From a virus: 64,000 nucleotides of DNA. The stretch lies in the IMG/VR virus record IMGVR_UViG_3300045988_174111, positions 32,001 through 96,000 of that record. One strand, given 5' to 3'. Positions 8,366-55,150 of this stretch are shown here, one piece after another. The notes beneath the pieces were generated by a model, which made no database searches, was not told the origin of the DNA, and was given only the letters and a program-made list of their open reading frames with translations. Made by a program: the position numbers and the translations under genes. Numbering within the stretch: position 1 is the first letter of the stretch; every line of letters starts with the position of its first letter.

Positions 8366-8366
8366 A

Positions 8367-10367: not shown

Positions 10368-10368
10368 A

Positions 10369-14815: not shown

Positions 14816-17800
14816 TTATAACGTCAAAGTCACTATATTCGTTTCGAAATTCGCTCTTAAAATATTTGAATCCTTACGATTATCGTATGACAAACAACCA
14901 TTTATAATAATTAAGTTCGAGCGGCTTCCCTCTAAAAGAGATGCCAATTGCTCATATTCCTGTTGAAATATAATGACTTCTAAGAATTCGTAATTTGCCT
15001 CTAAAATCAATCTGCACATAGTGTCACCTTTCCGAGTCTTTTTAATTTCCATATCGGAAACATAACCCGACACAACGACATATCCATTGTTAGGGCGGGA
15101 ATCCGTATCATTACAGTCTTCTACATTCGCAAATTCATAGGCATCCGGGAATTCTGACTTGAATCTTTCAAAGATTTGTTGATAGTCAAAGAAGGCCAAT
15201 CCTGAAACTTGTTTTTGTAGCAAAGCCCACCACCAAGAATCATTTGCGTGTAAATCCGCTCCTGACAGTACAGGGTCGTCGTCTTTTACTTCTGCTTTAA
15301 CCCCTACTAAAAAGTCAACAAGCAAATCAATTCGCTTAGAAATATCAGTAATGCCTTCTAATTTGTCAAATGCCCCTGCCAAAATTAAATTTCGAATAAT
15401 TCTATTATTCACAGCAGAACCTTTCCATTTGTGCCTTGTAATAAAATCATTCAAAGACCAATACTGGCCATTTTCTTTGCGTTCCTTAATAATTTGAGTC
15501 GCGGCTTTTTCTGCGACTTGTTTTACCCCAGTAATTGACCAATATAACGCCTTTTCTTCGAAATTAATCACTACGTCAACATCGGAAACATTAATGTCAA
15601 CTGGGCGAACTGTGCAAACGCCTGTCTTATTTATTTCTGCAATGTATCTTGAGTAATCTGTGTCCAAAGCATATTTAAACGCAACTGACCAATACTCAAT
15701 AGGATAGTGAACCTTTATCCATTGTGAAATATAGCCTGTAATCGCATAGGCAGCAGCGTGGCTTCGGTTGAACAGGTACGTCGAAGCCTTATCAATAGCG
15801 TCCCACACCTTTTCAGAGTATTCCTGGGTGACGTTATAGTTGTCCCGATAGTAAGGGATAAACCGTTCTTTATACTGCTGGAGAGCCTCGTATTTCTTCT
15901 TTACCATCGCTTTACGAACATCATCGGCTTCCACCAATGACAGCCCACCCAACTCACGACAAAGTTGCATGATTTGTTCTTGGTAGCAATTATGGACAAT
16001 TATTCCTCCAACTGTGAAACTATGAATATTTTCGACAGAGATATCATAGACCACCCTCTCCTCATCGTGTACAACTTCCTTCACCCTCCCCCACATATAA
16101 TTCGTAGGAGATTTTCTTGAAATTTTCTTTTTAGAAAGCATTCGATACGGTAAACAATAAAACAAATCTTTCCAAGAAACTGTCAATTTATTCAATCGGG
16201 GGAAAATAGAAGAATGAATCTGATAAGACTGTAAAGCAAAATATATGTCCTCAAGAAGAGAATTATTGCACATCTTCAAAGTATCATTTTTCAGGCACCC
16301 ATCGCCCTCTAATACCCCAGCAATCATATCCAAAGAATAATTACTTGGCAACCTTTTTTCATAGCAATTCTTCAGATAAAGTCCATATTTTTTCAAAAGA
16401 CTATTAAATTTGTTTTCTTGATAATTTTTACTAAAAAATCCATTCGATTTTCCTGAAACAGCTTTAACAGTCACTCTGATAGATTTACCAACATTTCCAG
16501 ATTTTTTCACCTGTGAACGTTCTTTTATTGTAACCTCAAAATCAGAATCTAATTCAAGTAACAATTCCCTTAATCTATTTGCAATTTCAAGATTTGAAAC
16601 TGTAAAATATGGAGAAGAATGCGTCGAAGTTCCTTCCGCAATAAAATACCCAATTAACCAATGCTCAAGTTTTTCCCTCTCCGTCAAGGAGTCAATTCTT
16701 ACAGGCTTTTCAAACCAACATTTTAGTTCATCATTTTTAACAAGATTCTGAGCCTCCACCCATCCACGTTTTGTTAAAATTTTATGGTCTGGAGTACAAA
16801 CAAGTTCCCTCCCAAAGTTAGAACGGACTCTAACTGTTTTCTTAACTCCATTATTTTTTAATAACAAAACTTTCTGAAAAGACCCGTCTTCAGTTTTAAC
16901 CATATCCCCAGGAATAATATCCTGGATTTTCTTAATTCCATTAAGAGTCAAAACTTCAGAATTTTCCGCAATACAGAAAACCCCATAAGTGTTATTAAGA
17001 ATCGATTCCGTTCCAACGAAATATTCTATCTCTTTCTTTCCTTCTTTTCTGACCACAAACTCATTGTGGAAGTTGTTCTCCATTGCTCCCGGACGATACA
17101 AAGAAATCGCTGCAATAAGGTCTTCAATATTATCAGGTTTCATTTGCTTACAATACCCTGTCAGCCCAGAACTTCCGAAGTGAAAATTATCTTCATTCCA
17201 CCCATTCTTAAAGTATCGATATACCTCCTTGTCATCCAAAGGAATACTGAAAATATCCAAGTCCACACCTTCGTGTTCCTTAACTAAACGAACCATATCT
17301 TGGAATTTGTCAAACTGTTTCACTCCAAGAACGTCTTCCTTTAGGAAACCTGCAGCATCCATTTCACCGCCTTCCCATTCAGTCACATATTCATCACCGC
17401 TCTTTCGAATAGGAACCCACCTAAACATGTCATTTTCATCCGGGAATACCATCATTGCACAAGCATGTATTGACTGAGCTTTAGGCGCAGGCATAATAAG
17501 CATTACTTCATTGATAAGGTCTGGGTGGCTCTTAACAAAATTCTTCACTTTCGAATTGGCACATGCAATTTTGAATAAATCTTCAGGTTTTCTGTCTTTA
17601 ACATCAAAAGCCTTCATCATCTCATTCGTAGACTGGAAATCTAGCCCATAAACTCTGGCCATATCCTTAATCGCAGCTCTTAGCTGAAGAGCACTATATG
17701 TTCCGACTGAACAAACCTGATTCCACCCGTATCGTTCTTCCATGTATTTCTTGACACGAGGACGGTCTTCCCCAGGATAGTCACAGTCAATATCAGGAAG

Positions 17801-19282
17801 AGATACCTTAACACGACCTGCATTCAAGAAACGTTCAAAAAGTAGATTATACCTCATCGGGTCTAACTTCGTAATTCCAAGAAGATAGGAAACAAGACAG
17901 CCCCCAGCAGAACCACGGCTGATTCCAGTCATTATCCCATTTCTGTGACACCAATTAATAATATCCCACGTAATTAAGAAATAATCAATTGCATCACCCA
18001 ATTTGATAACCCCTACTTCTCGGTCTATTCGCTCCATAATAACCTCTTCACCCCAATCCTCAATGAGGTCTGGGTGACGGTCAAGCCCATCCGATATAAG
18101 AGACCAAAAGAGGTCTTCATTCGTTTCAAATTTCTTGGCTTCTTCTTTTGTCATTTTATAACGCGGTAAATGTCTTTTTTTAACGTCAATGACAAAAGTA
18201 ATAGATTCGGCAATACTTTCAAGAAATTCCAAACCTTCTGTGAACCTTGAATAGACATCCATAAGGCCTTCATCTGTGTCTGGAAACATCTGTGAAAGCT
18301 CTGTAAATAATTGGTCGTTTGATTTGAAATATTGATTATCACTTTCGTATGCCGTTGTCCCTCCAATACTATGTAGGCGAGGCCTTATACAACTGTATTC
18401 TTCATCCAAATACCAAGCATCAACCGACGGAACAGGTAGCAAATTTCTATCCATGAAGAACTTTTTCAAGTTCTTCAAATACCATTCGTCCCTACTGTTA
18501 TCAACATATTCACATGGGTCAAGCTGATAGATAGCAGCATCCAAATTTAAACTTGATAAAACATCATAATCTAAGGTTTTGGGGTCCAGAAACAAAATCA
18601 AATCATCATTATCTCTCGTAATTTGATTAAAATCTTGAAGGCCAATGTATTTTGGATTGTCACAGTTTATGAACTTATTTATCGTCAAAAGGTCTTTCCA
18701 CCCCTTATCATTTCTTGCATACACTTTTACTGTGAATCTAATATCTCTTGGCTGGTCATATACGGTGCATTCCATCCCAATTATACTTTTCAGGCCGTTC
18801 TTTTGACATTCTGCCTGAAACTTCAAAGAACCAGCTAGCGAATTCTTTTCACAAATCCCTAAAGTGTTAACTCCAAGAAATTTAGCTTTTTTACACCAAT
18901 CAGAATACGTCCCGGAACCAGACATCATCTCATATTGGCCATGAACCCCAAGAAATACTTTAGTTTCAAATTCTTGTTTTGCAGCTCCAATATACTTCAA
19001 TCGTGTCAACTTGACATCATTTTCTTGCCCTTTTGACAACATGTAATACACCCCTCCAAATCGGTAAGCATAGAAGTCACAGTTTGTCTCAACTGTTCCA
19101 TCTTCAGCCCCACGATTGGGGTCAGCAGGAATTCCAACAAAATTGAAACTGTCATCAAACATCGCTCCGTCAAAGGCTTCTTTATACAGCTCAAAAGTCT
19201 TGCCGCCAATTTCAACTATATAGTCGGATAATTGTGTATAATCAAGTAAATTTTTTTCAAGGTATTCTTTAAATCTTTTCAT
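14816..19282 (-). CDS. dnaE: DNA polymerase III alpha-subunit-type replicase (DnaE family), interrupted by an intein
   Basis: 1488 aa. PHP-like region FLGVHGQYEMMSGSG, ISRGSAGGCLVSYLLGIT, catalytic LPDIDCDY, finger motif split as NNTYGVF|...|CYQEQIMQ, C-terminal OB/HhH-like region. Confidence 0.9.
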   Translation of the reverse strand: MKRFKEYLEKNLLDYTQLSDYIVEIGGKTFELYKEAFDGAMFDDSFNFVGIPADPNRGAEDGTVETNCDFYAYRFGGVYYMLSKGQENDVKLTRLKYIGAAKQEFETKVFLGVHGQYEMMSGSGTYSDWCKKAKFLGVNTLGICEKNSLAGSLKFQAECQKNGLKSIIGMECTVYDQPRDIRFTVKVYARNDKGWKDLLTINKFINCDNPKYIGLQDFNQITRDNDDLILFLDPKTLDYDVLSSLNLDAAIYQLDPCEYVDNSRDEWYLKNLKKFFMDRNLLPVPSVDAWYLDEEYSCIRPRLHSIGGTTAYESDNQYFKSNDQLFTELSQMFPDTDEGLMDVYSRFTEGLEFLESIAESITFVIDVKKRHLPRYKMTKEEAKKFETNEDLFWSLISDGLDRHPDLIEDWGEEVIMERIDREVGVIKLGDAIDYFLITWDIINWCHRNGIMTGISRGSAGGCLVSYLLGITKLDPMRYNLLFERFLNAGRVKVSLPDIDCDYPGEDRPRVKKYMEERYGWNQVCSVGTYSALQLRAAIKDMARVYGLDFQSTNEMMKAFDVKDRKPEDLFKIACANSKVKNFVKSHPDLINEVMLIMPAPKAQSIHACAMMVFPDENDMFRWVPIRKSGDEYVTEWEGGEMDAAGFLKEDVLGVKQFDKFQDMVRLVKEHEGVDLDIFSIPLDDKEVYRYFKNGWNEDNFHFGSSGLTGYCKQMKPDNIEDLIAAISLYRPGAMENNFHNEFVVRKEGKKEIEYFVGTESILNNTYGVFCIAENSEVLTLNGIKKIQDIIPGDMVKTEDGSFQKVLLLKNNGVKKTVRVRSNFGRELVCTPDHKILTKRGWVEAQNLVKNDELKCWFEKPVRIDSLTEREKLEHWLIGYFIAEGTSTHSSPYFTVSNLEIANRLRELLLELDSDFEVTIKERSQVKKSGNVGKSIRVTVKAVSGKSNGFFSKNYQENKFNSLLKKYGLYLKNCYEKRLPSNYSLDMIAGVLEGDGCLKNDTLKMCNNSLLEDIYFALQSYQIHSSIFPRLNKLTVSWKDLFYCLPYRMLSKKKISRKSPTNYMWGRVKEVVHDEERVVYDISVENIHSFTVGGIIVHNCYQEQIMQLCRELGGLSLVEADDVRKAMVKKKYEALQQYKERFIPYYRDNYNVTQEYSEKVWDAIDKASTYLFNRSHAAAYAITGYISQWIKVHYPIEYWSVAFKYALDTDYSRYIAEINKTGVCTVRPVDINVSDVDVVINFEEKALYWSITGVKQVAEKAATQIIKERKENGQYWSLNDFITRHKWKGSAVNNRIIRNLILAGAFDKLEGITDISKRIDLLVDFLVGVKAEVKDDDPVLSGADLHANDSWWWALLQKQVSGLAFFDYQQIFERFKSEFPDAYEFANVEDCNDTDSRPNNGYVVVSGYVSDMEIKKTRKGDTMCRLILEANYEFLEVIIFQQEYEQLASLLEGSRSNLIIINGCLSYDNRKDSNILRANFETNIVTLTL
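15989..16975 (-). mobile_element. Class 1 intein (329 aa, residues 770-1098 of DnaE) with a LAGLIDADG homing endonuclease
   Basis: Starts CIAENSEVLTLNG, has block B CTPDHKILT, and ends IIVHN followed by Cys (CYQEQ). LAGLIDADG blocks: WLIGYFIAEGTS and MIAGVLEGDGCL. Boundary codons checked on the nucleotide sequence. Confidence 0.85.
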
Positions 19283-19916
19283 GTCTTAATTCCTTTTTAA
19301 CAAGCTCAGTTATATTTTCACCATCTTTACATCCAAGTGAAAGAAAAGTTTGAGCAAACTTTTCACTTACATGTGAATTTATTTCGTAGGAATCAGAATG
19401 ATAATCACAAAAAATTATCTCAACTTCTTTCCCGCATGAAGCCGAAAGCCTAAAAATTGCCTGAGCTTCAATAGGAAATCTAAGAGAACCAAAAACAACA
19501 TCACACGCTGCTGATTCCTCGATTGTCATTTTAGACAAACGATTCGTAATATCATTGACAGTCCATCTTGCCCAAATATCTTCTCCAGCTATCTTCTTCA
19601 AATATTCGCCTGTATTTTGCAATATTTCACGGCCGGATACAAACGAAAAATCAGGAACTATTGAATTCCCAGAAGTTGGGAGCATAATGTTTTGTTTCAG
19701 TTCTTTCCATTTTGCATAAACCGTTCCATCTAACTGAATACCTCTGTCACGTCCTGTGAAAGTATTCATAAGCGTTTGACGAATTCCCTCGCTGAAATCC
19801 CCTATAATAATCGAACGATTTTCTGAATCGGCCTTTGCTCTTAAAAATTCTGCACGATAAGACTTCCCGGAGCCAATAACCCCAACAAGCCCATAAATCT
19901 TTCCTTTATGGTTCAT
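19269..19916 (-). CDS. P-loop nucleotide kinase, putative dNMP kinase
   Basis: 215 aa. Walker A GVIGSGKSYRAEF. Size and context (nucleotide-metabolism block) resemble phage dNMP kinases. Confidence 0.45.
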   Translation of the reverse strand: MNHKGKIYGLVGVIGSGKSYRAEFLRAKADSENRSIIIGDFSEGIRQTLMNTFTGRDRGIQLDGTVYAKWKELKQNIMLPTSGNSIVPDFSFVSGREILQNTGEYLKKIAGEDIWARWTVNDITNRLSKMTIEESAACDVVFGSLRFPIEAQAIFRLSASCGKEVEIIFCDYHSDSYEINSHVSEKFAQTFLSLGCKDGENITELVKKELRHEKI

Positions 19917-20445
19917 ACTGTAACATAAATTTTTGAATACTTGTAAAAAGTTCCCAGTCCTTTGAATACTTTTTCATCAGATTCTCACAGTTTTCAATAC
20001 ACTGTAATAATTTCTTAGACGAGTTCCCAAGGGCACATTCGTTTTTACAGAAAATCCACAAATCTAAATAATCACATGTCTTAAATAGGCGATACTGTAA
20101 ATCAGACATTAAAGACTTAATCTCAGAATCAGAATATGGTGCCAAAACTGTATCTCCATGACAAATCTCATATTCAATGATATCCCACGCGGAAGAAGTA
20201 TTTTCATTAAATTTCTTCACGCACGCATTAAGGTCGCCAGTAACACTTTCGACAAAATCATGAAGCAATACTTTGTCAAATACATTAATGTCGTAGGATA
20301 CGTCTTCTTCGGAAGCAAACCAACGAAATAACATACCTACTACGAGGCCATGCTCCAAGAGATTGTACCCCCTGTGGTGGGGGGTATTTGGCAATCTCTG
20401 GATATCTTTCATTCCTAAAAGGATGTCAATTTTTTTGTAATTCAT
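19906..20445 (-). CDS. HD-domain 5'-deoxynucleotidase (YfbR-like)
   Basis: 179 aa. RLPNTPHHRGYNLLEHGLVV, then LLHDFVESVTGDL...VKK, matching the YfbR pattern (...EHS..., HD..E..TGD). Confidence 0.65.
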   Translation of the reverse strand: MNYKKIDILLGMKDIQRLPNTPHHRGYNLLEHGLVVGMLFRWFASEEDVSYDINVFDKVLLHDFVESVTGDLNACVKKFNENTSSAWDIIEYEICHGDTVLAPYSDSEIKSLMSDLQYRLFKTCDYLDLWIFCKNECALGNSSKKLLQCIENCENLMKKYSKDWELFTSIQKFMLQYEP

Positions 20446-20465
20446 GCTATATTTATTTTAGTGAA

Positions 20466-21578
20466 CTATCCAATAAATAATTCATTCAACAACGGGTTTT
20501 TAAACTCGATAGGCTGTTTTGTCCAATAACGATAAATTATTTTACCCCAATCGGAAAATAAACCTTTAAAAAATCCAAGTTCTTCAAGTAAATCTTCCTT
20601 CTTTAAGCCTGCACGACACATCTCTTCAAATTGAGATAATTCCCCTATCCAGTAGTCGAACTCCTCTAATGTTTTAAACGTTGCATCGTATGTAAAGTTT
20701 ATTCCGGAAGAATATAAATTCGGGTCTCTTTTAGCTATTTCTTCGACCATAGGAATAAAATCCTTATAGACGTGAAGATTATCTACCTTATGGTAATATT
20801 TTCCGACAGGCACGCCCACTATTGCCGCAACATATTCCTGCATCAATGTAAAGTTAAATACATTCACTGCGCTAAACCCCCATATCAGGTCATTCGAACG
20901 CATATCAACATAACAGTTCATCTTCCCATCGACAACCATAAAATGAATTGAACGTGTGCAAGGAGTATCCTTTGTTTCCAAGATAGCTGCCTTTTCTGAA
21001 CCGCCTTCTTCATTTTGATAATGAGCATTAAAATTGTCAGAAATAGGGTCGTGAATCGTAATAACCGCTTCACGAGTGTCAATATCCTGTTTGAATTTTT
21101 CAATCACAAAGCGTAATTGGTCAGTAACATTTTGGTATGGAGCTGGCCGTTTCAACTTTGTTTGGCGACCGTTATCGTCTGCTTTTCCGTTCTTATACTG
21201 ACGTGGAAGGAGTTGTCCGGACAATGTTACCATCGACTCAAAATTATCGCCGTAACGACGTATTCGAGGCCCATACCCAGCTCTCATAAATTTACCATCA
21301 TCAGAAAAGTTCAACAAATTCTTTACATAGCTTGCAGGCATTTCCAAACTGTTATCTCCACGAGCAAGCCACAAACTTTCAATCCATCCTAATGTTTTGT
21401 TCCATTTACGTTCCGGAATACGAACGTAACGGTCAGTTGGATTTGAAATTTCAATCAAAACTGCCCCAGGAAATTCTCTACATTGAAAGCCTCTTCTTGT
21501 AACATCAATTCCTCTTTCAACTAGCCCCCGACTTAATAGGATGAGGGCACTACTTAAATTTTCTGCTTGAAAAAACAT
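20466..21578 (-). CDS. Thymidylate synthase-fold enzyme, candidate dUMP hydroxymethylase
   Basis: 370 aa. RKWNKTLGWIESLWLARG, catalytic-Cys context DTPCTRSIHFMV, YVDMRSNDLIWGFSAVNVFNF (compare QRSxDxxLGxPFN). About 100 aa longer than ThyA. Sits next to a DNA-modification-type gene pair. Confidence 0.6.
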   Translation of the reverse strand: MFFQAENLSSALILLSRGLVERGIDVTRRGFQCREFPGAVLIEISNPTDRYVRIPERKWNKTLGWIESLWLARGDNSLEMPASYVKNLLNFSDDGKFMRAGYGPRIRRYGDNFESMVTLSGQLLPRQYKNGKADDNGRQTKLKRPAPYQNVTDQLRFVIEKFKQDIDTREAVITIHDPISDNFNAHYQNEEGGSEKAAILETKDTPCTRSIHFMVVDGKMNCYVDMRSNDLIWGFSAVNVFNFTLMQEYVAAIVGVPVGKYYHKVDNLHVYKDFIPMVEEIAKRDPNLYSSGINFTYDATFKTLEEFDYWIGELSQFEEMCRAGLKKEDLLEELGFFKGLFSDWGKIIYRYWTKQPIEFKNPLLNELFIG

Positions 21579-21591
21579 ATCTCTAAATTAT

Positions 21592-22635
21592 TTATTCAAC
21601 AATAAATTCTCCTGGCTTAGGAAGAACCGCATTCCATTTAGGAGGAAAGACAAAATTAATCTCCTTGGAGCTTTTTTCATACGTGTGTTTGATTCTTTCA
21701 TTGCGCCCTTTATTGAAGGAAGCACCAAGCCCCTTGGCAAACTTACTTGTCTCACAGAAACAGTTTTGCAAATTTGTTAAAGTCGGAACAGGTTCCCAAG
21801 GTAAGGGATTCCATTTCATACCGCTTTCTTTGCAAAATTTATTCATCAATTCTTCGAAATTTTCGTGAACCCATTTAATTACTCCCACATAATCATAACG
21901 TTTCCCGGACGCTCCTTCAAATGTCCACCCGATTCCTTTTAAAGACCCTGGACCAGTAATGACAAAATCATTTTCCGAAAAATTAAACAAAGGGGAATAA
22001 TTCAAGTCGATGCAATACTGTTGTGCAGTAAAGTCCCCGTATATTTTCATTTTTCGAAATACCCAATACAATTCTTCAAAAGACTTTGCCTCCAGAAAAT
22101 CATACAAATGACCATTCTGAAATATTTCATCTTCGAAGATACGAAAATGCGCCCGATGCTTACTCATCCCCGTGATATGCTTGTATTCGGGGTATTGATA
22201 AAAGAAGCAATTAACGATATACGCATTCCCATAAATTGTATCACCACTTTCAATTACTTCATCTAAGAACTTAGCAATATTTTCTAGCCCTACTTCGTAG
22301 GTAATATCACCAAATTCTTTTTCAAGCAAGTCCCAAGTTTCGTTTTTGTTGAAATGCTTAAAAAGCAATATGCGAAAGAACATATCTTCTGGCTCATACT
22401 GTTTTCCGTTGTAAATTACACGACTCAACAGGTATTGGCTCACACGGTCAAGGCATCTATAAACATTCGTAAACTTGAATCTCCGAAGTATTTCATCGTC
22501 TGTCCATGGTCCAACCTGTCCATTGTACTTCTTCCAGAAGATATTCATTCTTTCGCATATCCAATACAAAAACCAATTAAATGTTTCTAATGGGACTGGA
22601 ATAAACTCATTTTCCTTTCTTTTTCCCATTTTCAA
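21592..22635 (-). CDS. putative DNA base hypermodification protein (aGPT-Pplase-like, alpha-glutamyl/putrescinyl-thymine pyrophosphorylase family)
   Basis: 347 aa. N-terminal WTDDEILRRFKFTNVYRCLDRVSQYL matches, from memory, the hallmark motif of this family (...W.D..L....F.NVYRe.DR.T). Overlaps the kinase gene by 29 nt. Confidence 0.5.
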   Translation of the reverse strand: MKMGKRKENEFIPVPLETFNWFLYWICERMNIFWKKYNGQVGPWTDDEILRRFKFTNVYRCLDRVSQYLLSRVIYNGKQYEPEDMFFRILLFKHFNKNETWDLLEKEFGDITYEVGLENIAKFLDEVIESGDTIYGNAYIVNCFFYQYPEYKHITGMSKHRAHFRIFEDEIFQNGHLYDFLEAKSFEELYWVFRKMKIYGDFTAQQYCIDLNYSPLFNFSENDFVITGPGSLKGIGWTFEGASGKRYDYVGVIKWVHENFEELMNKFCKESGMKWNPLPWEPVPTLTNLQNCFCETSKFAKGLGASFNKGRNERIKHTYEKSSKEINFVFPPKWNAVLPKPGEFIVE

Positions 22636-23353
22636 ATGTTTTAAACGAATTTCTGTCTATATAATCTGATTTTTTACAAAAAGCAATAAATTCATCACAC
22701 AACTCAGAAAGTTCGAAAAATTTTAAAATGTGGACACCTAAATCCCACACTGGAGAATCATAGGGTTGGTCATGTAAAACCACATTCCCTCCGGCATCGT
22801 TCACTTCTTTTCTCTCTCTTTGAGCCTTTTCAAAATCGTGAAGGAAAGTACGGTGCTTTCTCCACATGCAATCCCCCTTTGGAGGCTCGCCAGAGCGATA
22901 TGTTATCCGAGCACAGTATTCATCCCACTGGTCATCACGATAATCGTAGCGAACGTGAAGAATGTTTGAAAAACCTGAACTCTCACACAAACTCAAAGGA
23001 CGCAATCTCCAAGAAACTGTCGTACCTGCCCCATCAATTAGAACTCCATGACCTGCCTTCGAAACTTCTTCTAGGAAGAAGGAAAGCCCCTCAGCCTTGC
23101 AAAGTCTTGAAGTCATGCTATCATACCCCTGCCAACGACGAACTCCCCCGTTCTCGTAAAACTTTCCCACAAAAACCATATTAAAGTCAGGTGAATAAAC
23201 CCCAACTTCCTTTTCCTTTCCGTCAAGAGTTTTGAACTTATACGGGAGAAGTTCCATCCCTAAGGATTCTAAAAATTCCAGGAAGAGGTAAACCCTTGTG
23301 GACTTACCACTTCCAGAAATTCCTTTTACTAAAACTATAGATTCACCGTCCAT
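22607..23353 (-). CDS. P-loop kinase, candidate 5-hydroxymethyl-dU DNA kinase (5-HMUDK-like)
   Basis: 248 aa. Walker A VKGISGSGKSTRV. Translationally coupled to the aGPT-Pplase-like gene. Assignment rests on context plus P-loop only. Confidence 0.45.
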   Translation of the reverse strand: MDGESIVLVKGISGSGKSTRVYLFLEFLESLGMELLPYKFKTLDGKEKEVGVYSPDFNMVFVGKFYENGGVRRWQGYDSMTSRLCKAEGLSFFLEEVSKAGHGVLIDGAGTTVSWRLRPLSLCESSGFSNILHVRYDYRDDQWDEYCARITYRSGEPPKGDCMWRKHRTFLHDFEKAQRERKEVNDAGGNVVLHDQPYDSPVWDLGVHILKFFELSELCDEFIAFCKKSDYIDRNSFKTFENGKKKGK

Positions 23354-23356
23354 TTG

Positions 23357-24040
23357 TTATTTCTTTTTCGGCGTTTTCTTTGCAGGCGCAGATTGAGTAT
23401 CCTCAGCCAGTTCCAACGCTGTTGCGCGTTTCTTCACAGGCTTATCATCACCAAACTTAACCATACATTTTTCTTTTCCATCGCCGGACTGATATAAACG
23501 AACAACTTCGCCAACAGTGCTGGAACCTTTCAACGTTACTTTTGAGCCAACTTTCAGTCCTGGAACCTCTGTTGATTCTTCAAGATTCTGTCGTTTTGTT
23601 TCACGCGATTTTTCAGATTTTCCGGCCTTGGCACCCTCTCTCATTGATTTGTCTGACTTAGAAGGGGTCTTTCTTTCTTTCTGACGCTTGTCATATTCTT
23701 TTTCAGCAGCGGCAAGACGGGCTTCTTCTTCTTCGGTAAGCTTTTCTTCGGACTGATAATTCGAATTGCGTTTGTTCTGACGCTTCATAGCTGCTTCTGG
23801 TGAACCATCACCGTCTTCATCTTCAGACTCTTTTTCTTCCTCTTTCTTTACCGGAGCCTTCTTCGGAGCCTTTTTAGGAGCTTCCTTCTTTTCTTCCGCT
23901 TCACCGCCCATTTTTTCCAAAAATTCCTGAGCAATTTTTACTTCCAATTCGGTTGATTCCTCATTGTTAACAATTTCTTCCAACTGTTCTTTCGAAAATT
24001 TTCTGTACTTCATGCGAAGTGCTAATGCATTGTTTGCCAT
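23357..24040 (-). CDS. Lys/Glu-rich low-complexity protein with a small C-terminal beta-rich (KOW/SH3-like) domain
   Basis: 227 aa. EEKKEAPKKAPKKAPVKKEEEKESEDED tracts. C-terminal VGSKVTLKGSSTVGEVVRLYQSGDGKEKCMVKFGDDKPV. First gene after the promoter box at 24102-24109. Confidence 0.55.
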   Translation of the reverse strand: MANNALALRMKYRKFSKEQLEEIVNNEESTELEVKIAQEFLEKMGGEAEEKKEAPKKAPKKAPVKKEEEKESEDEDGDGSPEAAMKRQNKRNSNYQSEEKLTEEEEARLAAAEKEYDKRQKERKTPSKSDKSMREGAKAGKSEKSRETKRQNLEESTEVPGLKVGSKVTLKGSSTVGEVVRLYQSGDGKEKCMVKFGDDKPVKKRATALELAEDTQSAPAKKTPKKK

Positions 24041-24101
24041 AATCGTTTTTCTTTTTTGGTTAAAATTCTATTTTAGAAATAAATTATCACTTATCTCGGT
24101 A

Positions 24102-24109
24102 CAAATATA
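24102..24109 (-). promoter_or_regulatory. Bacteroidota-type -7 promoter box (TATATTTG)
   Basis: The minus strand reads TATATTTGTACCG in the 116-nt gap between dut and ORF 23357-24040. Confidence 0.4.
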
Positions 24110-24156
24110 ACGTAAATAATTCGAATCCTAATGATTTTTCTCAATAAAAATCGAAA

Positions 24157-24606
24157 TTATTTTGTTCCAGTATGGCCAAATCCTCCAGTTCCTCTTTCTG
24201 TATCAGTAAGTTCTTCGACTGAAGAAACTTCGACAACTTCCTCGACTTTTGCATAGGGGGCAAAGACAATTTGGGCAATTCTGTCACCATTCTCAATAGT
24301 TTGTGGTTCTGTCGACAGGTTAATCAACGGAACACCTACTTCCCCACGATAGTCAGCGTCAATGGTTCCAGGAGCATTGATTACGGTCAGACCCTGTTTA
24401 ACAGCGCAACCGCTGCGAGGTCTCACCTGACCCTCGTACCCCTGTTCGATTTCCATATACAAACCAGTAGGGATGATTTTACGCTCCATCGGAGCCAATG
24501 TGATTGAACCCTCGGGAAGATAGGCACGCAAGTCCATACCCGAACTGTCTGGAGTTTTGTACTCCGGCAGAGCATTTGTGCTCTTGTTTACGATTCTTAA
24601 TTTCAT
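24157..24606 (-). CDS. dut: dUTP diphosphatase (trimeric dUTPase)
   Basis: 149 aa with all five motifs: SSGMDLRA, PRSG, GTIDADYRGE, GDRIAQ, RGTGGFGHTG. Confidence 0.95.
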   Translation of the reverse strand: MKLRIVNKSTNALPEYKTPDSSGMDLRAYLPEGSITLAPMERKIIPTGLYMEIEQGYEGQVRPRSGCAVKQGLTVINAPGTIDADYRGEVGVPLINLSTEPQTIENGDRIAQIVFAPYAKVEEVVEVSSVEELTDTERGTGGFGHTGTK

Positions 24607-27784: not shown

Positions 27785-29956
27785 TTATACTGCATCAACT
27801 TTAATCATTAAGGTGCTTTCTCTTAATCTATTAATTGCCATAAAAGAAGAGGAAACCGTATCATCATGCCCACTAATACTTTCGAGAGTTCCCTTGTCAC
27901 TTCTAAATGCAATAGAATTAAATTCTCCAAACATTTGGTCTATTTTTTGAGAAGTGTCCGGATGATAAGGGCATTTAATAGCTCCTCTCTCAAATAACGC
28001 TGCAAGTGACGCCCATCCAGTTCTCAAGTCCTTTTTATTTCCCGAAGTAGTAGTGAACGGAGTAATATTTCTAATGCCCATTTGAACGCACATGTCCGCC
28101 AAAATATTTTGAAACCCATTGTTCTCAACGACAATTTCATTTGGCTTAAATGTTTGATTCAGCAAATTTATCTTCTGAATTTGTTCATTATGAGACAGCC
28201 CCTTTTCTCGGAAAATATACAAAAGATAATAATTTCCTTGGATGTCTTTCCCCCAAACCGTGTAACAGGTATAATCGGCACCAACGTTACCAGATACGGC
28301 AAAGTCACAACCAATAACAACTCTTTGAAGCTTAATAGGAAAAGACTCTATATTCTCAACGAGCCTGACATTTTCCATACCGATTGTGCTTCTCTTTAGT
28401 ATCTCCCAAGGGAAAATCGTACTGTCGTCAGATATAGGTACAACCAAATATTCTCGAGAAAATACGAGAGTCCCAAGAGATGCTTTTTCTTCCATAAGTT
28501 TCTTCCATGTAAAACGGTCTGGAGCTAATAGACGCCCGTCCGGGAAAATTGCTGGGTATTCAAAAACTTTGAATTTGGGGTCTTTTTTAAGTTCCGCGTA
28601 TAAGTCCTCTTGCTGATATGGGGTTCCATCTACAATATTGTATCCATACGGCTCAACGATAGGGGTGATTGCTCCTTTAAACAGGTCTCTAAGTTTTTCT
28701 CTTTGTTCCAAGGAATAAATACTACTTTCGTCCGGCAAGTCATCACTCACTGCCGCCCCAACATGAAGCCCTCGAATAAACCCGTCCTTTCCGCGCAAAT
28801 GAAGCTTCGTTCCATTTTCGCATTCTATACTAGTTGCGGCCAAAGAAGCCTTTCCAGTAGGATTCAACTTTGCTGCTAAAGCCTCGTTTACTCGAATTTC
28901 CTCAACAACTTTGTCAATGTGCTGTTTACCCAGCTTCTCCGTGTTGGTGATAATACAGGTTTCCTGACGATTCTTATTATCGGGAATGTCAGGTCTCATA
29001 AACGTTGGTCGTCTATAACTGTACAACCTCCACAATGGAAATGCCATGCAAAACTCATAAGAGTTGTGAACAACGGTTCCGTCTTCCAACTGGAATATAT
29101 GGTCTCCGTCGCACATAAAACCATAATAGGATTCTTCCCCTATGGGTTCAACACGTATATTCCCTCTTTCGAAGACAGGCTTATCGTAGGAAAAAACCCT
29201 ATACCCCTGGAATCTTCTTTGTTTCTTCACAGGATACTTCAAGAATTGCCCCATCTCAATTTCAACATATTTTTTCTTCTTTGTATCCCACAGGCATAAA
29301 ATGTGCGCTCGATTTACAGCATAAGGCATTCCATTTTCCTGTTCGACTCTGAACATCTGTGAACGCCCAATATGACGTGTCAAAACTTTTCTCGGGGTAA
29401 AATCAACGCCCATCACCTCCATTCCTGGATAAATGTCCTCAACATTTTTCACCGAAAAATCTGACATTAAAATTCTTGTCCCCCTCGCAAAACATTTTCC
29501 GTGGGAACGGGCAGCAAGATAAGCACTATTCGGATAGAGCTGTACCATGTTTCCCCACTCAAGATTTCTCCACCCCTGACGGAAGTTCGGAAGCATTGTC
29601 GTCTTGAAATAATTATAGGACTGAATTTTTAAAGTTTCATCCATAGACTCTTCTAATTGGTCTATATAATCAAGACGTTCTGTTTCTAAAGTTGAATTTA
29701 ACGTCAGTACATTATTTGTTTGGATAAAAATTTCTGATAAAAGGGAATCAATATCGCCTGAATATCCGTTAACTAGCTGATTTATTGCAACTGGCGGCAA
29801 AGACTCTATCACATTAAATGCGGTAGAAAAAACTGTATCAAGCTGCTTATATGACAATTTTGAATCTTCATTAAAATGTATCATATCACACCAACTGAAA
29901 TCCTTCTCTGAATCTTGATTCTTTTTTCGTTGACGCCACAGGGGTAGAAACTCCAA
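27785..29956 (-). CDS. terL: Terminase large subunit, interrupted by a mini-intein in the Walker A motif
   Basis: Walker A split as ARSHGK|...|SYEF. Also AAVSDDLPDE, IVDGTPYQ, and nuclease motifs VIGCDFAVSG...DYTCYTVWG, VENNGFQ, GHDDTVSS. The ATG at 29884 (Met25) would avoid a 71-nt overlap and may be the true start. Confidence 0.85.
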   Translation of the reverse strand: MEFLPLWRQRKKNQDSEKDFSWCDMIHFNEDSKLSYKQLDTVFSTAFNVIESLPPVAINQLVNGYSGDIDSLLSEIFIQTNNVLTLNSTLETERLDYIDQLEESMDETLKIQSYNYFKTTMLPNFRQGWRNLEWGNMVQLYPNSAYLAARSHGKCFARGTRILMSDFSVKNVEDIYPGMEVMGVDFTPRKVLTRHIGRSQMFRVEQENGMPYAVNRAHILCLWDTKKKKYVEIEMGQFLKYPVKKQRRFQGYRVFSYDKPVFERGNIRVEPIGEESYYGFMCDGDHIFQLEDGTVVHNSYEFCMAFPLWRLYSYRRPTFMRPDIPDNKNRQETCIITNTEKLGKQHIDKVVEEIRVNEALAAKLNPTGKASLAATSIECENGTKLHLRGKDGFIRGLHVGAAVSDDLPDESSIYSLEQREKLRDLFKGAITPIVEPYGYNIVDGTPYQQEDLYAELKKDPKFKVFEYPAIFPDGRLLAPDRFTWKKLMEEKASLGTLVFSREYLVVPISDDSTIFPWEILKRSTIGMENVRLVENIESFPIKLQRVVIGCDFAVSGNVGADYTCYTVWGKDIQGNYYLLYIFREKGLSHNEQIQKINLLNQTFKPNEIVVENNGFQNILADMCVQMGIRNITPFTTTSGNKKDLRTGWASLAALFERGAIKCPYHPDTSQKIDQMFGEFNSIAFRSDKGTLESISGHDDTVSSSFMAINRLRESTLMIKVDAV
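29063..29494 (-). mobile_element. Mini-intein (144 aa, TerL residues 155-298), no endonuclease domain
   Basis: Starts CFARGTRILMSD, has block B-like NRAHILC, and ends GTVVHN followed by Ser. Excision restores RSHGKSYEF. Boundary codons checked on the nucleotide sequence. Confidence 0.8.
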
Positions 29957-54730: not shown

Positions 54731-55150
54731 TTATGAAGCAGCGGCAGCAGCTTCAATAGATACGACGATAGAATCATTAATCAACATACAGTTACCTTGC
54801 GCACGTACTAATCTCCCTACAGATGTAATCGTTGGTTGAACAGTCGGCAACGCTGTTTGCCCCTGAAACGCAACATCAAAATGTTCCGTAATAGGTTGCC
54901 CGTTGTTGTTACATCCGCAATTATTGAACTGAGGAATGTTGATTGTTGCAGTTATCGGTACGTAAACGGTACTTCCTGATAGAATAGGAGTTCCGCTTGC
55001 GTATTGAATCGTGACAGGAATATTGCTTGCCGCTCCCATCATTGAACATACTGATTTACACAACTTTTCTCTGAATGTTGCCATAGTTGACAACTGGTTA
55101 GCAGTCAGTGCTGTTGTTGCTAACCCTACTGGGGATAATGATACTGACAT
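54731..55150 (-). CDS. hypothetical protein (139 aa), Ala/Thr/Val/Gln-rich; second gene of a self-contained cassette
   Basis: No family recognised. Features: NNCGCNNNGQP and a C-terminal EAAAAAS. Visibly more GC-rich codons than its neighbours (by eye). Confidence 0.6.
   Translation of the reverse strand: MSVSLSPVGLATTALTANQLSTMATFREKLCKSVCSMMGAASNIPVTIQYASGTPILSGSTVYVPITATINIPQFNNCGCNNNGQPITEHFDVAFQGQTALPTVQPTITSVGRLVRAQGNCMLINDSIVVSIEAAAAAS

What the first reader, a model, noticed from the sequence alone, without database searches (positions are those of the whole stretch)
19269..24606. Predicted thymidine-replacement and DNA hypermodification operon with no visible tailoring enzymes
Seen in sequence: the genes below lie on one strand, downstream of dut and of a TAnnTTTG box at 24102-24109. 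(1) 20466-21578 is a 370-aa thymidylate-synthase-fold protein. It has the catalytic-Cys context DTPCTRS, the RSND motif, and an Asn in AVNVFNF, which in this superfamily goes with uracil rather than cytosine substrates. It is about 100 aa longer than ThyA. (2) 21592-22635 carries WTDDEILRRFKFTNVYRCLDRVSQ, which I recall as the hallmark of the alpha-glutamyl/putrescinyl-thymine pyrophosphorylase (aGPT-Pplase) family. (3) 22607-23353 is a 248-aa P-loop kinase overlapping gene (2) by 29 nt, as expected for a 5-hmdU DNA kinase. (4) A YfbR-like HD 5'-deoxynucleotidase, a dNMP-kinase-like P-loop protein and a dUTPase flank these three genes. Established knowledge: in phages phiW-14, SP10, ViI and M6, thymidine hypermodification runs in steps. 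A dUMP hydroxymethylase makes 5-hmdUMP, 5-hmdU is incorporated into DNA, a DNA kinase phosphorylates the hydroxymethyl group, and an aGPT-Pplase-type enzyme replaces the phosphate with an amine or amino acid. PLP or radical-SAM enzymes then trim the product. Inference: this phage replaces T with 5-hmdU (the dTMP pool removed by the HD nucleotidase, dUMP supplied by dUTPase) and decorates it after replication. No PLP or radical-SAM enzyme is visible in the window, so the final base could be an untrimmed adduct different from the characterised ones. I know of no characterised example from a Bacteroidota phage.
Basis: partly seen in the sequence, partly recalled or inferred. Interest (0 to 1): 0.85.

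Follow-up and report, generated by a model that had tools for sequence, protein, structure and literature searches.

The report
Thymine-replacement operon lacking the known transferase
A common phage lineage, probably infecting gut Bacteroidales, carries genes to swap thymine for 5-hydroxymethyluracil and phosphorylate it in DNA, but it lacks the only enzyme known to finish the decoration and has an uncharacterised relative of it instead.

Summary
On the minus strand lie dUTPase, a K/E-rich protein, a 5-hmdU DNA kinase (PF18747), an aGPT-Pplase clade-1 protein (PF18723), a uracil-type thymidylate-synthase-fold enzyme, a YfbR-like HD nucleotidase, a dNMP kinase-like protein, then DnaE. About 32 related IMG/VR contigs keep this order.

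The interpretation needs one correction. Gene 21592-22635 is clade 1, whose activity is unknown. It is not clade 2 (ADDT, PF18724), the only family shown to replace the phosphate with an amine or amino acid.

No ADDT, PLP, radical-SAM, FAD, GNAT or glycosyltransferase gene turned up in the window. None was listed for a fully walked 109-kb relative either. A sister lineage (L035) and Vibrio phage D503 carry ADDT exactly between the kinase and clade-1 genes, L035 with a GATase and a GNAT beside it.

Replacement of T by 5-hmdU is well supported by homology. What happens after phosphorylation is open.

Clade 1 keeps an invariant Cys-Glu pair and folds like SP10 gp186C, with ADDT as the next-nearest fold. 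Its most constant partner is the hydroxymethylase, including in Bacteroidota chromosomal cassettes with TIR and Nmad domains.

Verdict: a new variant of a known system, of moderate interest.

The parts
24157..24606 (-). Trimeric dUTPase. It would supply dUMP and keep dUTP out of DNA.
   Evidence: PF00692 at 3.1e-28, phrog_135 at 4e-60. It holds this position in about 32 related contigs.
24102..24109 (-). TATATTTG, which matches the Bacteroidota -7 promoter consensus TAnnTTTG. It is only a candidate promoter element.
   Evidence: Present in the 116-nt gap between dut and the next gene. The motif count in the window is at chance level, 79 against 72.5 +/- 9.4.
23357..24040 (-). K/E-rich 227-aa protein of unknown function, always sitting between dut and the kinase.
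   Evidence: No Pfam or PHROG family above threshold. Its position is conserved at 44-77% identity in relatives. The protein in the same position in a distant relative carries a Rho_N domain.
22607..23353 (-). P-loop 5-hmdU DNA kinase of the 'kinase 2' type. It is predicted to make 5-phosphomethyl-dU in DNA. Walker A GISGSGKST lies at 23297-23323.
   Evidence: PF18747 HMUD2 at 6.4e-21, 75 bits against a cutoff of 25. Its tblastn relatives are Ackermannviridae and Vibrio phage genes that sit next to ADDT. ViI gp243, listed as 'Kinase2', was shown to make 5-PmdU (PMC5889632, PMC8989533).
21592..22635 (-). aGPT-Pplase clade-1 protein (Pfam PF18723, 'HMUDK_hel'), activity unknown. The N-terminal hallmark motif lies at 22435-22506. 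The invariant Cys294-Glu295 lie at 21751-21756 and Lys298 at 21742-21744.
   Evidence: PF18723 at 8.2e-76, the same family as M6 gp55 and the Nachito protein annotated 'aGPT-pyrophosphorylase clade 1'. AF2 model: pLDDT 93.7. Nearest structures are SP10 gp186 (TM 0.72), phiW-14 and phiRSL1 clade-1 proteins, followed by ADDT proteins at E 0.026-0.66. The top PDB hit is PUGT 8z2m but it is not significant, E 1.7. Invariant residues are listed.
20466..21578 (-). Thymidylate-synthase-fold enzyme, predicted to be a dUMP 5-hydroxymethylase. Catalytic Cys207 lies at 20958-20960 and the uracil-specifying Asn239 at 20862-20864.
   Evidence: PF00303 at 1.6e-17, phrog_5131 at 7e-62. SPO1 gp29 (a dUMP hydroxymethylase) matches at 6e-28 and about 30% identity. 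In an NJ tree it groups with the SPO1, M6, D503, Nachito and Colly enzymes, apart from E. coli ThyA and T4 gp42, in 196 of 200 bootstraps. All catalytic residues and the Asn are conserved.
19906..20445 (-). YfbR-like HD 5'-deoxynucleotidase. It is a candidate dTMP-clearing enzyme, but that role is inferred.
   Evidence: PF12917 at 2.6e-13, HD_3 at 7e-5. It is syntenic with M6 gp59, an HD hydrolase directly after the TS gene.
19269..19916 (-). P-loop dNMP kinase-like protein, predicted to convert 5-hmdUMP to 5-hmdUDP.
   Evidence: phrog_139 at 4e-11, no Pfam hit. It contains GVIGSGKS. A gene annotated as dNMP kinase follows the TS gene in Vibrio phage D503.
14816..19282 (-). DnaE-type replicative polymerase carrying an intein at about 15987-16976. 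This enzyme would have to accept 5-hmdUTP.
   Evidence: Hits DNA_pol3_alpha, PHP, finger, HHH_6, Intein_splicing and LAGLIDADG_3. The intein is absent from relatives.

Best explanation
This is a thymidine-replacement and post-replicative modification operon of the phiW-14 / SP10 / ViI / M6 kind, in a minimal form.

Inferred from homology and synteny:
- dUTPase supplies dUMP.
- The TS-fold enzyme, which has the uracil-type Asn and belongs to the SPO1 gp29 clade, makes 5-hmdUMP.
- The dNMP kinase and the host NDP kinase raise it to 5-hmdUTP, while the HD nucleotidase depletes dTMP.
- The phage DnaE then builds DNA with 5-hmdU in place of T.
- The PF18747 kinase phosphorylates some 5-hmdU residues in the polymer to 5-PmdU.

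Less certain is the last step. The clade-1 protein is translationally coupled to the kinase and always sits beside the hydroxymethylase. It probably acts on 5-hmdU or 5-PmdU through its invariant Cys294/Glu295, by analogy with the Cys-C6 chemistry of clade-2 ADDT.

The lineage has no detectable ADDT and no PLP, radical-SAM, FAD, GNAT or sugar-transfer enzyme. The end product therefore cannot be any of the characterised trimmed bases. It should be one of three things: residual 5-hmdU/5-PmdU, a simple untrimmed adduct as SP10 appears to make, or thymine regenerated at the polymer level. My single best guess is partial conversion of 5-hmdU to a simple clade-1-dependent product, with the rest left as 5-hmdU.
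For: - Family assignments.
- The operon order is conserved in about 32 related contigs at 43-100% protein identity, and in a more distant lineage.
- It is syntenic with M6 (kinase, clade 1, Nmad5, gp57, TS, HD..., polymerase) and with Vibrio phage D503 (kinase, ADDT..., clade 1..., TS, dNMPK).
- The TS-like protein groups with SPO1 gp29 and carries Asn239 plus all catalytic residues.
- Members of both kinase families make 5-PmdU in vitro (PMC8989533).
- Clade 1 has 18 invariant, mostly polar residues, including C294-E295-xx-K298, across sequences only 19-44% identical.
- The clade-1 fold is closest to SP10 gp186C, with ADDT next. Sub-threshold collinear motif matches align its Cys with the ADDT catalytic Cys.
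- ADDT and tailoring enzymes are absent from the window and from a 109-kb relative.
- ADDT is inserted between the kinase and clade-1 genes in L035 (with GATase and GNAT) and in D503.
Against: - There is no biochemical evidence for any step in this phage.
- Clade-1 activity has never been shown. M6 gp55 was not needed in vitro (PMC8989533).
- Sequence comparisons of clade 1 against ADDT are not significant. The ADDT metal ligands E-T are Q290-N291 here.
- The part of this exact genome outside the window was not seen. Only a relative 66-83% identical at the nucleotide level was examined, and 4 of the 29 Pfam families found there were not displayed.
- The role of the HD enzyme as a dTMPase is assumed.
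- Clade 1-TS pairs occur without any kinase in other phages and in bacterial cassettes. Clade 1 may therefore not need a phosphorylated substrate, or may not act on DNA at all.
Confidence: 0.55

Rival explanations
1. Canonical hypermodification. The clade-1 protein is itself the amine or amino-acid:DNA transferase, so the virion carries an untrimmed adduct such as an amino-acid- or polyamine-substituted thymine.
For: SP10 makes alpha-glutamylthymine with a kinase-clade-1 fusion (gp186), and no second Pplase was detected in its genome (PMC5889632, Table 3). No ADDT was found in SP10 95-144 kb with a local HMM. Clade 1 has an invariant Cys-Glu pair, and ADDT is its next-nearest fold. The kinase + clade 1 arrangement without ADDT recurs in other lineages: L038, L040, L043 and Nachito.
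Against: Transfer has never been shown for clade 1, and M6 gp55 was dispensable. The metal-binding E-T of ADDT is missing. SP10 also has a large radical-SAM protein (gp185) whose role is unknown. Phages that already have ADDT keep clade 1 as well, which argues that clade 1 does something else.
Confidence: 0.25
2. Polymer-level thymine synthesis. Clade 1 converts 5-PmdU or 5-hmdU back to thymine, so mature DNA is T, possibly with residual 5-hmdU in certain sequence contexts.
For: SP10, phiW-14, M6 and ViI all convert the unmodified remainder of 5-hmdU to T before packaging, and the papers read here assign no enzyme to that step (PMC8989533). By Pfam or the literature, all four encode a clade-1 protein (PMC5889632). 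M6 gp51 plus borohydride gives thymidine through the exocyclic methylene (PMC8989533), so the chemistry is feasible for a Cys enzyme of this fold.
Against: No reductant-binding domain or cofactor motif was seen. The case is purely correlative. A replace-then-revert cycle with no hypermodified base has no obvious benefit.
Confidence: 0.2
3. Clade 1 is a non-catalytic or DNA-binding partner of the kinase, as the Pfam name 'helical domain' suggests. The final bases are then 5-hmdU and 5-PmdU.
For: It is fused to the kinase in SP10 gp186. It overlaps the kinase by 23-29 nt here. The SP10 kinase domain alone is active (PMC8989533).
Against: An invariant set of polar residues including a Cys-Glu pair points to an active site. 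Clade 1 occurs without any kinase next to TS-like genes in phages and in at least 42 bacterial loci. Homing endonucleases split it from the kinase in several relatives.
Confidence: 0.15
4. The clade 1-TS pair works on free nucleotides rather than on DNA, making or removing a modified dUMP derivative, as may happen in the bacterial TIR/Nmad cassettes. In the phage it would serve pool manipulation or counter-defence.
For: Clade 1-TS adjacency is the most conserved link: all the phage lineages examined and 42 of 73 cellular loci. Those cellular loci sit with TIR, Nmad1 and Nmad2 and have no polymerase or kinase. HhH-glycosylase-fold enzymes can act on nucleotides, as Qng1/DUF2419 does. Related cassettes are predicted or validated as defence systems (PMC13092281).
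Against: ADDT, the nearest characterised fold, acts on DNA. A DNA kinase is coupled to clade 1 here. The literature treats clade-1-bearing phages as DNA hypermodifiers.
Confidence: 0.1
5. The TS-like protein is an ordinary thymidylate synthase and the operon is plain nucleotide metabolism.
For: It has the TS fold with all dUMP-binding residues and Asn. Databases often annotate its homologues as 'thymidylate synthase'.
Against: It is 19% identical to E. coli ThyA against 27-32% to the hydroxymethylase group. It shares the group's SDDG and TKDxPC motifs. It lacks the ThyA WDEW tryptophans and the PCH His. It groups away from ThyA in 196 of 200 bootstraps. Its best PDB match is the hydroxymethylase MilA. 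It sits beside a 5-hmdU DNA kinase.
Confidence: 0.05

Closest known systems
Pseudomonas phage M6 / PaMx11 thymidine hypermodification cluster (5-NedU, 5-AcNmdU)
   Same: The backbone and order match: 5-hmdU DNA kinase, clade-1 protein (gp55), TS-like hydroxymethylase (gp58), HD hydrolase (gp59), all upstream of the DNA polymerase.
   Different: M6 adds ADDT (gp51), a PLP decarboxylase (gp52), a radical-SAM isomerase (gp53) and Nmad5. None of these is present here. The M6 kinase is PF18748, while this one is PF18747. The polymerase here is DnaE-type.
Salmonella phage ViI (Ackermannviridae) and Vibrio phage D503 cluster (5-NeOmdU type)
   Same: The same kinase family (PF18747, ViI gp243 type), and the same order in D503: kinase ... 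clade 1 ... TS, dNMP kinase.
   Different: Those phages have ADDT (ViI gp247 type) between the kinase and clade 1, plus a PLP enzyme elsewhere in the genome. Here the kinase gene runs straight into clade 1. Sister lineage L035 has GATase, ADDT, an unknown gene and GNAT at that exact site.
Bacillus phage SP10 gp186 (alpha-glutamylthymine)
   Same: Kinase plus clade 1 with no clade-2 transferase detected. The clade-1 model superposes best on gp186C, TM 0.72 (PMC5889632).
   Different: In SP10 the two are fused and the kinase is PF18748-type. A large radical-SAM protein (gp185) is adjacent. The host is Gram-positive.
Bacillus phage SPO1 and other hmU phages
   Same: A dUMP hydroxymethylase of the same clade (gp29, about 30% identity), and the same logic of dNMP kinase plus dUTP/dTTP control.
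   Different: The literature reports no aG/PT-PPlase in SPO1, and its 5-hmdU stays unmodified (PMC5889632, PMC8989533). Table 3 of PMC5889632 lists the 5-hmdU DNA kinase among genes unique to the hypermodifying phages.
Bacteroidota chromosomal cassettes: clade 1, TS-like, Nmad1, TIR, Nmad2
   Same: Outside this lineage, the closest cellular relatives found for the clade-1 protein (35-45% identity). They too are followed directly by an Asn-type TS-like gene.
   Different: No kinase, polymerase, dUTPase or dNMP kinase. They are associated with TIR and Nmad domains and are probably defence systems (PMC13092281). None of those partners is in the phage.

Membership tests
5-hmdU-derived thymidine hypermodification cluster (phiW-14 / SP10 / ViI / M6 type) | Uracil-specific TS-fold dUMP hydroxymethylase | tested here: met
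   PF00303. Asn239 and all catalytic residues are present. It groups with SPO1 gp29 and M6 gp58.
5-hmdU-derived thymidine hypermodification cluster (phiW-14 / SP10 / ViI / M6 type) | 5-hmdU DNA kinase (PF18748 or PF18747) | tested here: met
   PF18747 at 6.4e-21, with Walker A present.
5-hmdU-derived thymidine hypermodification cluster (phiW-14 / SP10 / ViI / M6 type) | Clade-2 aGPT-Pplase = amino acid/diamine:DNA transferase (PF18724, E-T-x-x-C) | tested here: not met
   No Pfam hit in any window ORF of at least 90 aa. A local 5-sequence ADDT HMM found nothing in the six-frame window or the 109-kb relative, best E 1.2 or worse. The positive controls L035, M6 and D503 scored 1e-77 to 1e-175.
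5-hmdU-derived thymidine hypermodification cluster (phiW-14 / SP10 / ViI / M6 type) | Tailoring enzymes (PLP decarboxylase, radical SAM, FAD oxidoreductase, acetyltransferase, and similar) | tested here: not met
   None in the window. None among the families listed for the rest of a relative's genome.
5-hmdU-derived thymidine hypermodification cluster (phiW-14 / SP10 / ViI / M6 type) | Non-canonical thymidine derivative in virion DNA | not testable with these tools
   Requires LC-MS/MS or signal-level sequencing of virion DNA.
aGPT-Pplase clade 1 (PF18723, 'HMUDK_hel') | Full-length profile match and the family's invariant residues | tested here: met
   255.5 bits against a cutoff of 25, covering profile positions 3-273 of 281. 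R29, P43, F55, N57, R60, D63, T100, A138, Y139, K159, F202, D210, G228, G230, G234, C294, E295 and K298 are all present.
aGPT-Pplase clade 1 (PF18723, 'HMUDK_hel') | Fold shared with known members (SP10 gp186C, phiW-14 gp72) | tested here: met
   Foldseek against BFVD: SP10 gp186 at E 3e-12, TM 0.72; phiW-14 C9DG43 at E 3e-7.
aGPT-Pplase clade 1 (PF18723, 'HMUDK_hel') | A defined biochemical activity | not testable with these tools
   The literature read here reports none for any member (PMC8989533, PMC5889632, PMC13458397).
ADDT / aGPT-Pplase clade 2 (PF18724), considered for gene 21592-22635 | Profile match to PF18724 | tested here: not met
   Only PF18723 was reported at E up to 0.1. The local ADDT HMM scored -3.8 bits. 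hhalign against M6 gp51 gave probability 0.3%.
ADDT / aGPT-Pplase clade 2 (PF18724), considered for gene 21592-22635 | Catalytic motif: metal-binding Glu-Thr followed by Cys (PaMx11 E243, T244, C247) | tested here: not met
   The Cys aligns (C294), but Glu-Thr are replaced by Q290-N291. An invariant Glu follows the Cys instead (PMC11472151).
ADDT / aGPT-Pplase clade 2 (PF18724), considered for gene 21592-22635 | Shared fold | tested here: inconclusive
   PDB rank 1 is PUGT 8z2m, but with E 1.7 and TM 0.39-0.45. BFVD ADDT proteins rank just below clade 1, with E 0.026-0.66 and probability 0.66-0.99.
dUMP hydroxymethylase (SPO1 gp29 type) | Closer to characterised hydroxymethylases than to ThyA or dCMP hydroxymethylase | tested here: met
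   27-32% identity against 19-21%. NJ bootstrap 196 of 200. phrog_5131 at 7e-62 against phrog_160 at 6e-30.
dUMP hydroxymethylase (SPO1 gp29 type) | Product is 5-hmdUMP, not dTMP | not testable with these tools
   Needs an enzyme assay or thyA complementation.
5-hmdU DNA kinase 2 (PF18747, ViI gp243 type) | Phosphorylates 5-hmdU within DNA | not testable with these tools
   Supported only by homology and context.

The most novel reading that the evidence does not exclude
The clade-1 'aGPT-Pplase' may be an autonomous Cys-dependent enzyme that processes 5-hmdU or 5-PmdU. If so, this abundant phage lineage, probably of gut Bacteroidales, is a natural minimal system (hydroxymethylase + kinase + clade 1 only). 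Its DNA would carry a thymidine derivative not yet described, or would reveal the long-missing enzyme for polymer-level conversion of 5-hmdU to thymine.
Probability: 0.25. Interest if true: 0.8.

Novelty: new variant of a known kind. Interest (0 to 1): 0.55.

Why it matters
Thymidine hypermodification is understood only where the clade-2 transferase is present. The partner clade-1 family is in all four classical hypermodifying phages, yet it has had no assigned activity since it was predicted in 2013.

This lineage has the hydroxymethylase, the DNA kinase and clade 1, and no detectable transferase or tailoring enzyme. That makes it a clean place to ask what clade 1 does.

The lineage is also common in human-associated metagenomes: one clade-1 protein cluster holds 3,796 member sequences. 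Non-canonical thymidines would then affect restriction evasion in a major gut phylum. They could also affect how well such phages are recovered by enzyme-based library preparation and nanopore base-calling.

The same clade 1-TS pair sits in Bacteroidota chromosomes with TIR and Nmad domains. That links phage DNA modification to a probable defence system.

Tried and rejected
- **Close relatives in GenBank.** Megablast of the operon against GenBank phages gave no match.
- **Exact-sequence look-up** of the clade-1 protein found nothing on record.
- **One frameshifted fusion gene?** I tested whether the kinase and clade 1 are a single gene like SP10 gp186. Rejected: GIY-YIG homing endonuclease genes are inserted between them in several relatives, and both ORFs stay intact.
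- **A transferase hiding elsewhere in the genome?** I walked a 109-kb relative with six viral-contig scans and scanned its ORFs. None was found.
- **DUF2400 as a cryptic ADDT?** Rejected. Its model matches Qng1/DUF2419 and the MutY, EndoIII and OGG glycosylases, not PUGT. It shows no profile similarity to clade 1.
- **Clade 1 versus clade 2 by sequence.** Profile comparison was not significant. Only fold ranking supports a relationship.
- **Partners of the bacterial cassette.** Nmad1, TIR and Nmad2 homologues were not found in the phage.
- **Regulatory and RNA signals.** Sigma-70 promoter and terminator scans were at chance level. No tRNAs and no Rfam families.
- **Literature.** The 2013 Iyer et al. 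paper that defined the families is not held in the library. Statements about it are second-hand, from PMC8989533 and PMC5889632.

Full report
**What is in the sequence.** Every gene in the 64-kb window is on the minus strand. In transcription order the region of the finding reads:
- dUTPase, 24157-24606 (PF00692, 3e-28)
- a 116-nt gap holding TATATTTG at 24102-24109
- a K/E-rich 227-aa protein with no family, 23357-24040
- a 248-aa P-loop protein, 22607-23353 (PF18747 '5-hmdU DNA kinase 2', 6e-21)
- a 347-aa protein, 21592-22635 (PF18723, 8e-76)
- a 370-aa thymidylate-synthase-fold protein, 20466-21578 (PF00303, 1.6e-17; phrog_5131, 7e-62)
- a YfbR-like HD protein, 19906-20445 (2.6e-13)
- a dNMP-kinase-like protein, 19269-19916 (phrog_139, 4e-11)
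- an intein-bearing DnaE polymerase

The TAnnTTTG box is real, but the motif is no more frequent in the window than in shuffled sequence, 79 against 72.5 +/- 9.4. It is a reasonable candidate promoter only because of where it lies.

**Which 'aGPT-Pplase' this is.** The current Pfam splits the family under new names. I ran reference proteins through the same library:
- M6 gp51, the glycine:DNA transferase, is PF18724 'ADDT'.
- M6 gp54, the kinase, is PF18748.
- M6 gp55 and the Bacillus phage Nachito protein annotated 'aGPT-pyrophosphorylase clade 1' are PF18723, the family of the window protein.

The Pfam label '5-hmdU DNA kinase, helical domain' reflects SP10 gp186, a fusion of the kinase with a clade-1 domain (PMC5889632, Table 3). 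A local clade-1 HMM places that domain at gp186 residues 329-647.

It has been shown only for clade 2: M6 gp51, ViI gp247, PaMx11 gp46, phiW-14 gp109 and the SH-Ab 15599 enzyme (PMC8989533, PMC11472151, PMC13458397). In the M6 reconstitution the kinase plus gp51 were sufficient, and gp55 could be left out (PMC8989533). The window gene therefore belongs to a family whose function is unknown.

**No transferase and no tailoring enzymes.** Pfam scans of all window ORFs of at least 90 aa showed replication, recombination, packaging and myovirus-like structural genes only. There was no ADDT, PLP, radical-SAM, FAD, acetyltransferase, amidotransferase or glycosyltransferase.

The window is only part of a genome of about 105-110 kb. 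To cover the rest, I walked a complete 109,370-bp relative (IMGVR_UViG_3300045988_073438) with successive scans. I then mapped the window onto it: the window corresponds to contig positions of about 103,270 down to 44,600, at 66-83% nucleotide identity.

The 95 ORFs outside the window's equivalent gave these Pfam hits:
- Cpn60 fragment
- sigma-70
- BACON
- ferritin
- RNase H
- NUDIX
- Tad2-like
- Rep3
- portal
- UvrD
- class II RNR
- DUF2400

None of the listed families is a transferase or a tailoring enzyme.

I also built a local ADDT HMM from five diverse sequences. It scored the positive controls at 1e-77 to 1e-175. In the six-frame translations of the window and of the relative it found nothing better than E = 1.2.

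Three caveats apply:
- Only 25 of the 29 families were displayed.
- The relative is not the same genome as the window.
- ORFs under 90 aa in the window were checked only with the local HMMs.

**Comparative context.** Thirty-two related IMG/VR loci (66-91% identical on the clade-1 protein, L002-L034) keep the same order from dut to DnaE. None has ADDT within 10 kb. Some have a GIY-YIG homing endonuclease gene between the kinase and clade 1. The two are therefore separate genes and not a broken fusion.

A sister lineage, L035 (44% identity), has four extra genes at exactly that junction: a glutamine amidotransferase, an ADDT (9e-20), an unknown 292-aa protein and a GNAT acetyltransferase. Vibrio phage D503 has the arrangement kinase, ADDT, two small genes, clade 1, two genes, TS, dNMP kinase.

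M6 has ADDT, PLP, rSAM, kinase, clade 1, Nmad5, gp57, TS, HD and, further on, the polymerase.

The window lineage thus carries the conserved backbone of these clusters without the variable transferase-and-tailoring insert.

The same bare arrangement recurs elsewhere. It appears in a more distant lineage (Rho_N protein, kinase, clade 1, TS). It appears with a PF18748-type kinase in L038, L040 and L043, and in SP10 and Nachito.

**The TS-like enzyme.** Its best phage relatives are the Maribacter phages Colly and Molly, SPO1 gp29 (the classical dUMP hydroxymethylase; 6e-28, about 30% identity over 85% of the length), Bacillus phage G and the M6-like phages. Its best solved structure is the CMP hydroxymethylase MilA (5e-20). 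True thymidylate synthases follow at 1e-9 or weaker.

In an alignment with references it keeps E67, Y102, R169, C207, R227, S228, D230, H269 and Y271. It has Asn239 where ThyA and SPO1 gp29 have Asn and T4 dCMP hydroxymethylase has Asp. It shares SDDG and TKDxPC with the hydroxymethylase group, and it lacks the ThyA WDEW tryptophans and the PCH histidine.

A neighbour-joining tree places it with the phage hydroxymethylases, apart from E. coli ThyA and T4 gp42, in 196 of 200 bootstraps. That tree has few outgroups, so it is supportive rather than decisive. The length of about 350-390 aa is typical of this group.

**The clade-1 protein.** Across twelve members only 19-44% identical to it, eighteen residues are invariant. 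They are mostly polar: R29, P43, F55, N57, R60, D63, T100, A138, Y139, K159, F202, D210, G228, G230, G234, C294, E295 and K298. The conserved cysteine is C294, in F-C-E-x-x-K near the C-terminus.

ADDT catalysis uses E-T-x-x-C, with Glu and Thr binding a metal and Cys attacking C6 (PMC11472151, PMC13458397). Sub-threshold but collinear HMM matches align two pairs of segments:
- ADDT 'fGrlsawkfiealk' with clade-1 'FGDFLAYQMAQDL'
- ADDT 'lElEtvlCklKk' with clade-1 'NLQNCFCEYDKF'

That puts C294 on the catalytic Cys, with the metal ligands replaced by Q290-N291. Sequence statistics alone do not support homology.

An AlphaFold model built on 56 homologues is confident: pLDDT 93.7, pTM 0.91, all-helical. 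Against viral models, its nearest neighbours are clade-1 proteins of SP10 (TM 0.72), phiRSL1, phiW-14 and others. Directly below them come 'amino acid:DNA transferase' proteins at E 0.026-0.66 and probability up to 0.99. Against the PDB, the top-ranked entry is PaMx11 gp46/PUGT, followed by OGG-type glycosylases, but none is significant (E 1.7).

I read this as a distant relative of ADDT that has kept the nucleophile but not the metal site. It is probably an enzyme rather than a passive domain.

**An unexpected partner pattern.** I scanned one genome per prokaryotic species with the clade-1 alignment. This returned 73 loci, mostly Bacteroidota and including megabase-scale chromosomes, at 35-45% identity.

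In 42 of them clade 1 is followed directly by a TS-like gene. Only one of the 73 (L250, probably a phage contig binned into a MAG) has a kinase and ADDT.

All 44 of the cellular TS-like proteins that could be aligned, and all 41 from the IMG/VR loci, have the uracil-type Asn and the full set of eight catalytic residues checked.

Pfam on 122 neighbouring genes from 25 loci gave TIR domains (28), Nmad2 (21) and DUF1599/Nmad1 (15).

Another phage group (L041 type) has a TET-associated glycosyltransferase, a radical-SAM/SPASM protein, clade 1, TS, HD and dCTP deaminase, with no kinase.

So the hydroxymethylase, not the kinase, is the constant partner of clade 1. A recent study lists aGPT-Pplase/Nmad/dUTPase cassettes as predicted defence systems. 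It also validated a system containing TS, dNMP kinase, 5-hmdU kinase and NMAD domains (PMC13092281). None of the TIR or Nmad partners is in the phage.

**Mechanism and its limits.** Homology and synteny support four things: replacement of T by 5-hmdU before replication, with dUMP supplied by dUTPase; hydroxymethylation; phosphorylation of the nucleotide by the dNMP kinase; and post-replicative phosphorylation of some 5-hmdU residues by the PF18747 kinase. None of these is demonstrated here. The dTMP-clearing role of the HD enzyme is an assumption.

What follows phosphorylation is open. Three outcomes fit the data.
- A simple adduct installed by clade 1. SP10 is the precedent.
- Regeneration of thymine. 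All four classical phages do this, and the papers read here assign no enzyme to that step (PMC8989533).
- No further chemistry.

I put about 0.8 on 5-hmdU incorporation, about 0.6 on DNA phosphorylation, and no more than 0.25-0.3 on any one final product.

**Host and prevalence.** The host evidence is indirect but points one way:
- BACON domains and Listeria-Bacteroides repeats in structural proteins
- crAss001_48 and DUF4494 domains in the relative
- a DUF2400 gene 44-47% identical to Bacteroidales proteins
- the Bacteroidota bias of the clade-1 relatives

Many related contigs come from Human Microbiome Project-style sample identifiers. One clade-1 protein cluster has 3,796 member sequences.

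I found no paper describing a characterised thymidine modification in a Bacteroidota phage. The flavobacterial Maribacter phages carry a related TS next to a glucosyltransferase and sugar-nucleotide enzymes, but that is annotation only.

**Verdict.** The key enzyme was assigned to the wrong clade, and this changes the conclusion. This is not a hypermodification pathway missing only its trimming steps. It is one missing its known transferase as well. It is a new variant of a known system, and its main value is as a minimal natural setting for working out what clade 1 does.

Noticed in passing
Genome-contig loci L250-L322 (for example L292 CP091725.1, L293 OZ007032.1, L261 OY782858.1): Clade-1 homologues at 35-45% identity are widespread in Bacteroidota chromosomes. 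In 42 of 73 loci they are followed directly by an Asn-type TS-like gene. They sit in a cassette with TIR, Nmad2 and DUF1599/Nmad1 proteins and no kinase (L250 apart). This is probably a defence system built on the same two enzymes.
   Followed up: partly
L035:6902-9989 (IMGVR_UViG_3300025575_000059); also L250: A sister phage lineage has a glutamine amidotransferase, an ADDT, an unknown 292-aa protein and a GNAT acetyltransferase inserted exactly between the kinase and clade-1 genes. I did not see this enzyme combination among the pathways described in the papers read here.
   Followed up: partly
L154:15333-16085 (relative contig 073438, positions 22679-23431; outside the window): Relatives carry a DUF2400/TIGR02757 gene (Pfam 1.2e-62) in their early region. 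Its AlphaFold model (pLDDT 94.5) matches the queuosine-5'-phosphate glycosylase Qng1/DUF2419 and the MutY, EndoIII and OGG glycosylases. Its closest cellular homologues are from Bacteroidales, at 44-47% identity. Function unknown.
   Followed up: partly
window 15987-16976, 1405-2454 and within 27785-29956: There are inteins or Hint-LAGLIDADG insertions in DnaE, the SNF2 helicase and the large terminase. The walked relative lacks the DnaE and SNF2 insertions, and its genes are uninterrupted there.
   Followed up: partly
window 32452-33048: A GIY-YIG/NUMOD3 homing endonuclease gene. Its paralogues sit at different places in relatives, including between the kinase and clade 1, after DnaE and after the primase-like gene. 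These look like mobile endonucleases actively shuffling within the lineage.
   Followed up: partly
window 8001-12000: The segment encoding RecA, an Mre11-like phosphoesterase and a 666-aa protein I take to be Rad50-like (no Rad50 family hit) has 45-46% G+C, against 35-40% for the rest of the window.
   Followed up: no
L041:8210-13532 and similar loci L037-L045: Another phage group has a TET-associated glycosyltransferase, a radical-SAM/SPASM protein, clade 1, TS, an HD protein and dCTP deaminase. There is no 5-hmdU kinase next to clade 1 in L041 and L045, while L038, L040 and L043 have a PF18748-type kinase there.
   Followed up: partly
L001 (Maribacter phage Colly_1, 69830-74589): In this flavobacterial phage the nearest cultured-phage relative of the TS-like enzyme lies next to a beta-glucosyltransferase, a UDP-glucose dehydrogenase and an epimerase. 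That suggests a glycosylated hydroxymethylpyrimidine in another Bacteroidota phage.
   Followed up: no
window 55150-58100: A low-G+C (about 30%) stretch with few long ORFs. No tRNA or Rfam family was found there.
   Followed up: partly
window 49006-52893: A 1295-aa protein made largely of Listeria-Bacteroides (Flg_new) repeats, probably a fibre or adhesin. Together with the BACON-domain proteins in relatives, it hints at a Bacteroidota host.
   Followed up: no
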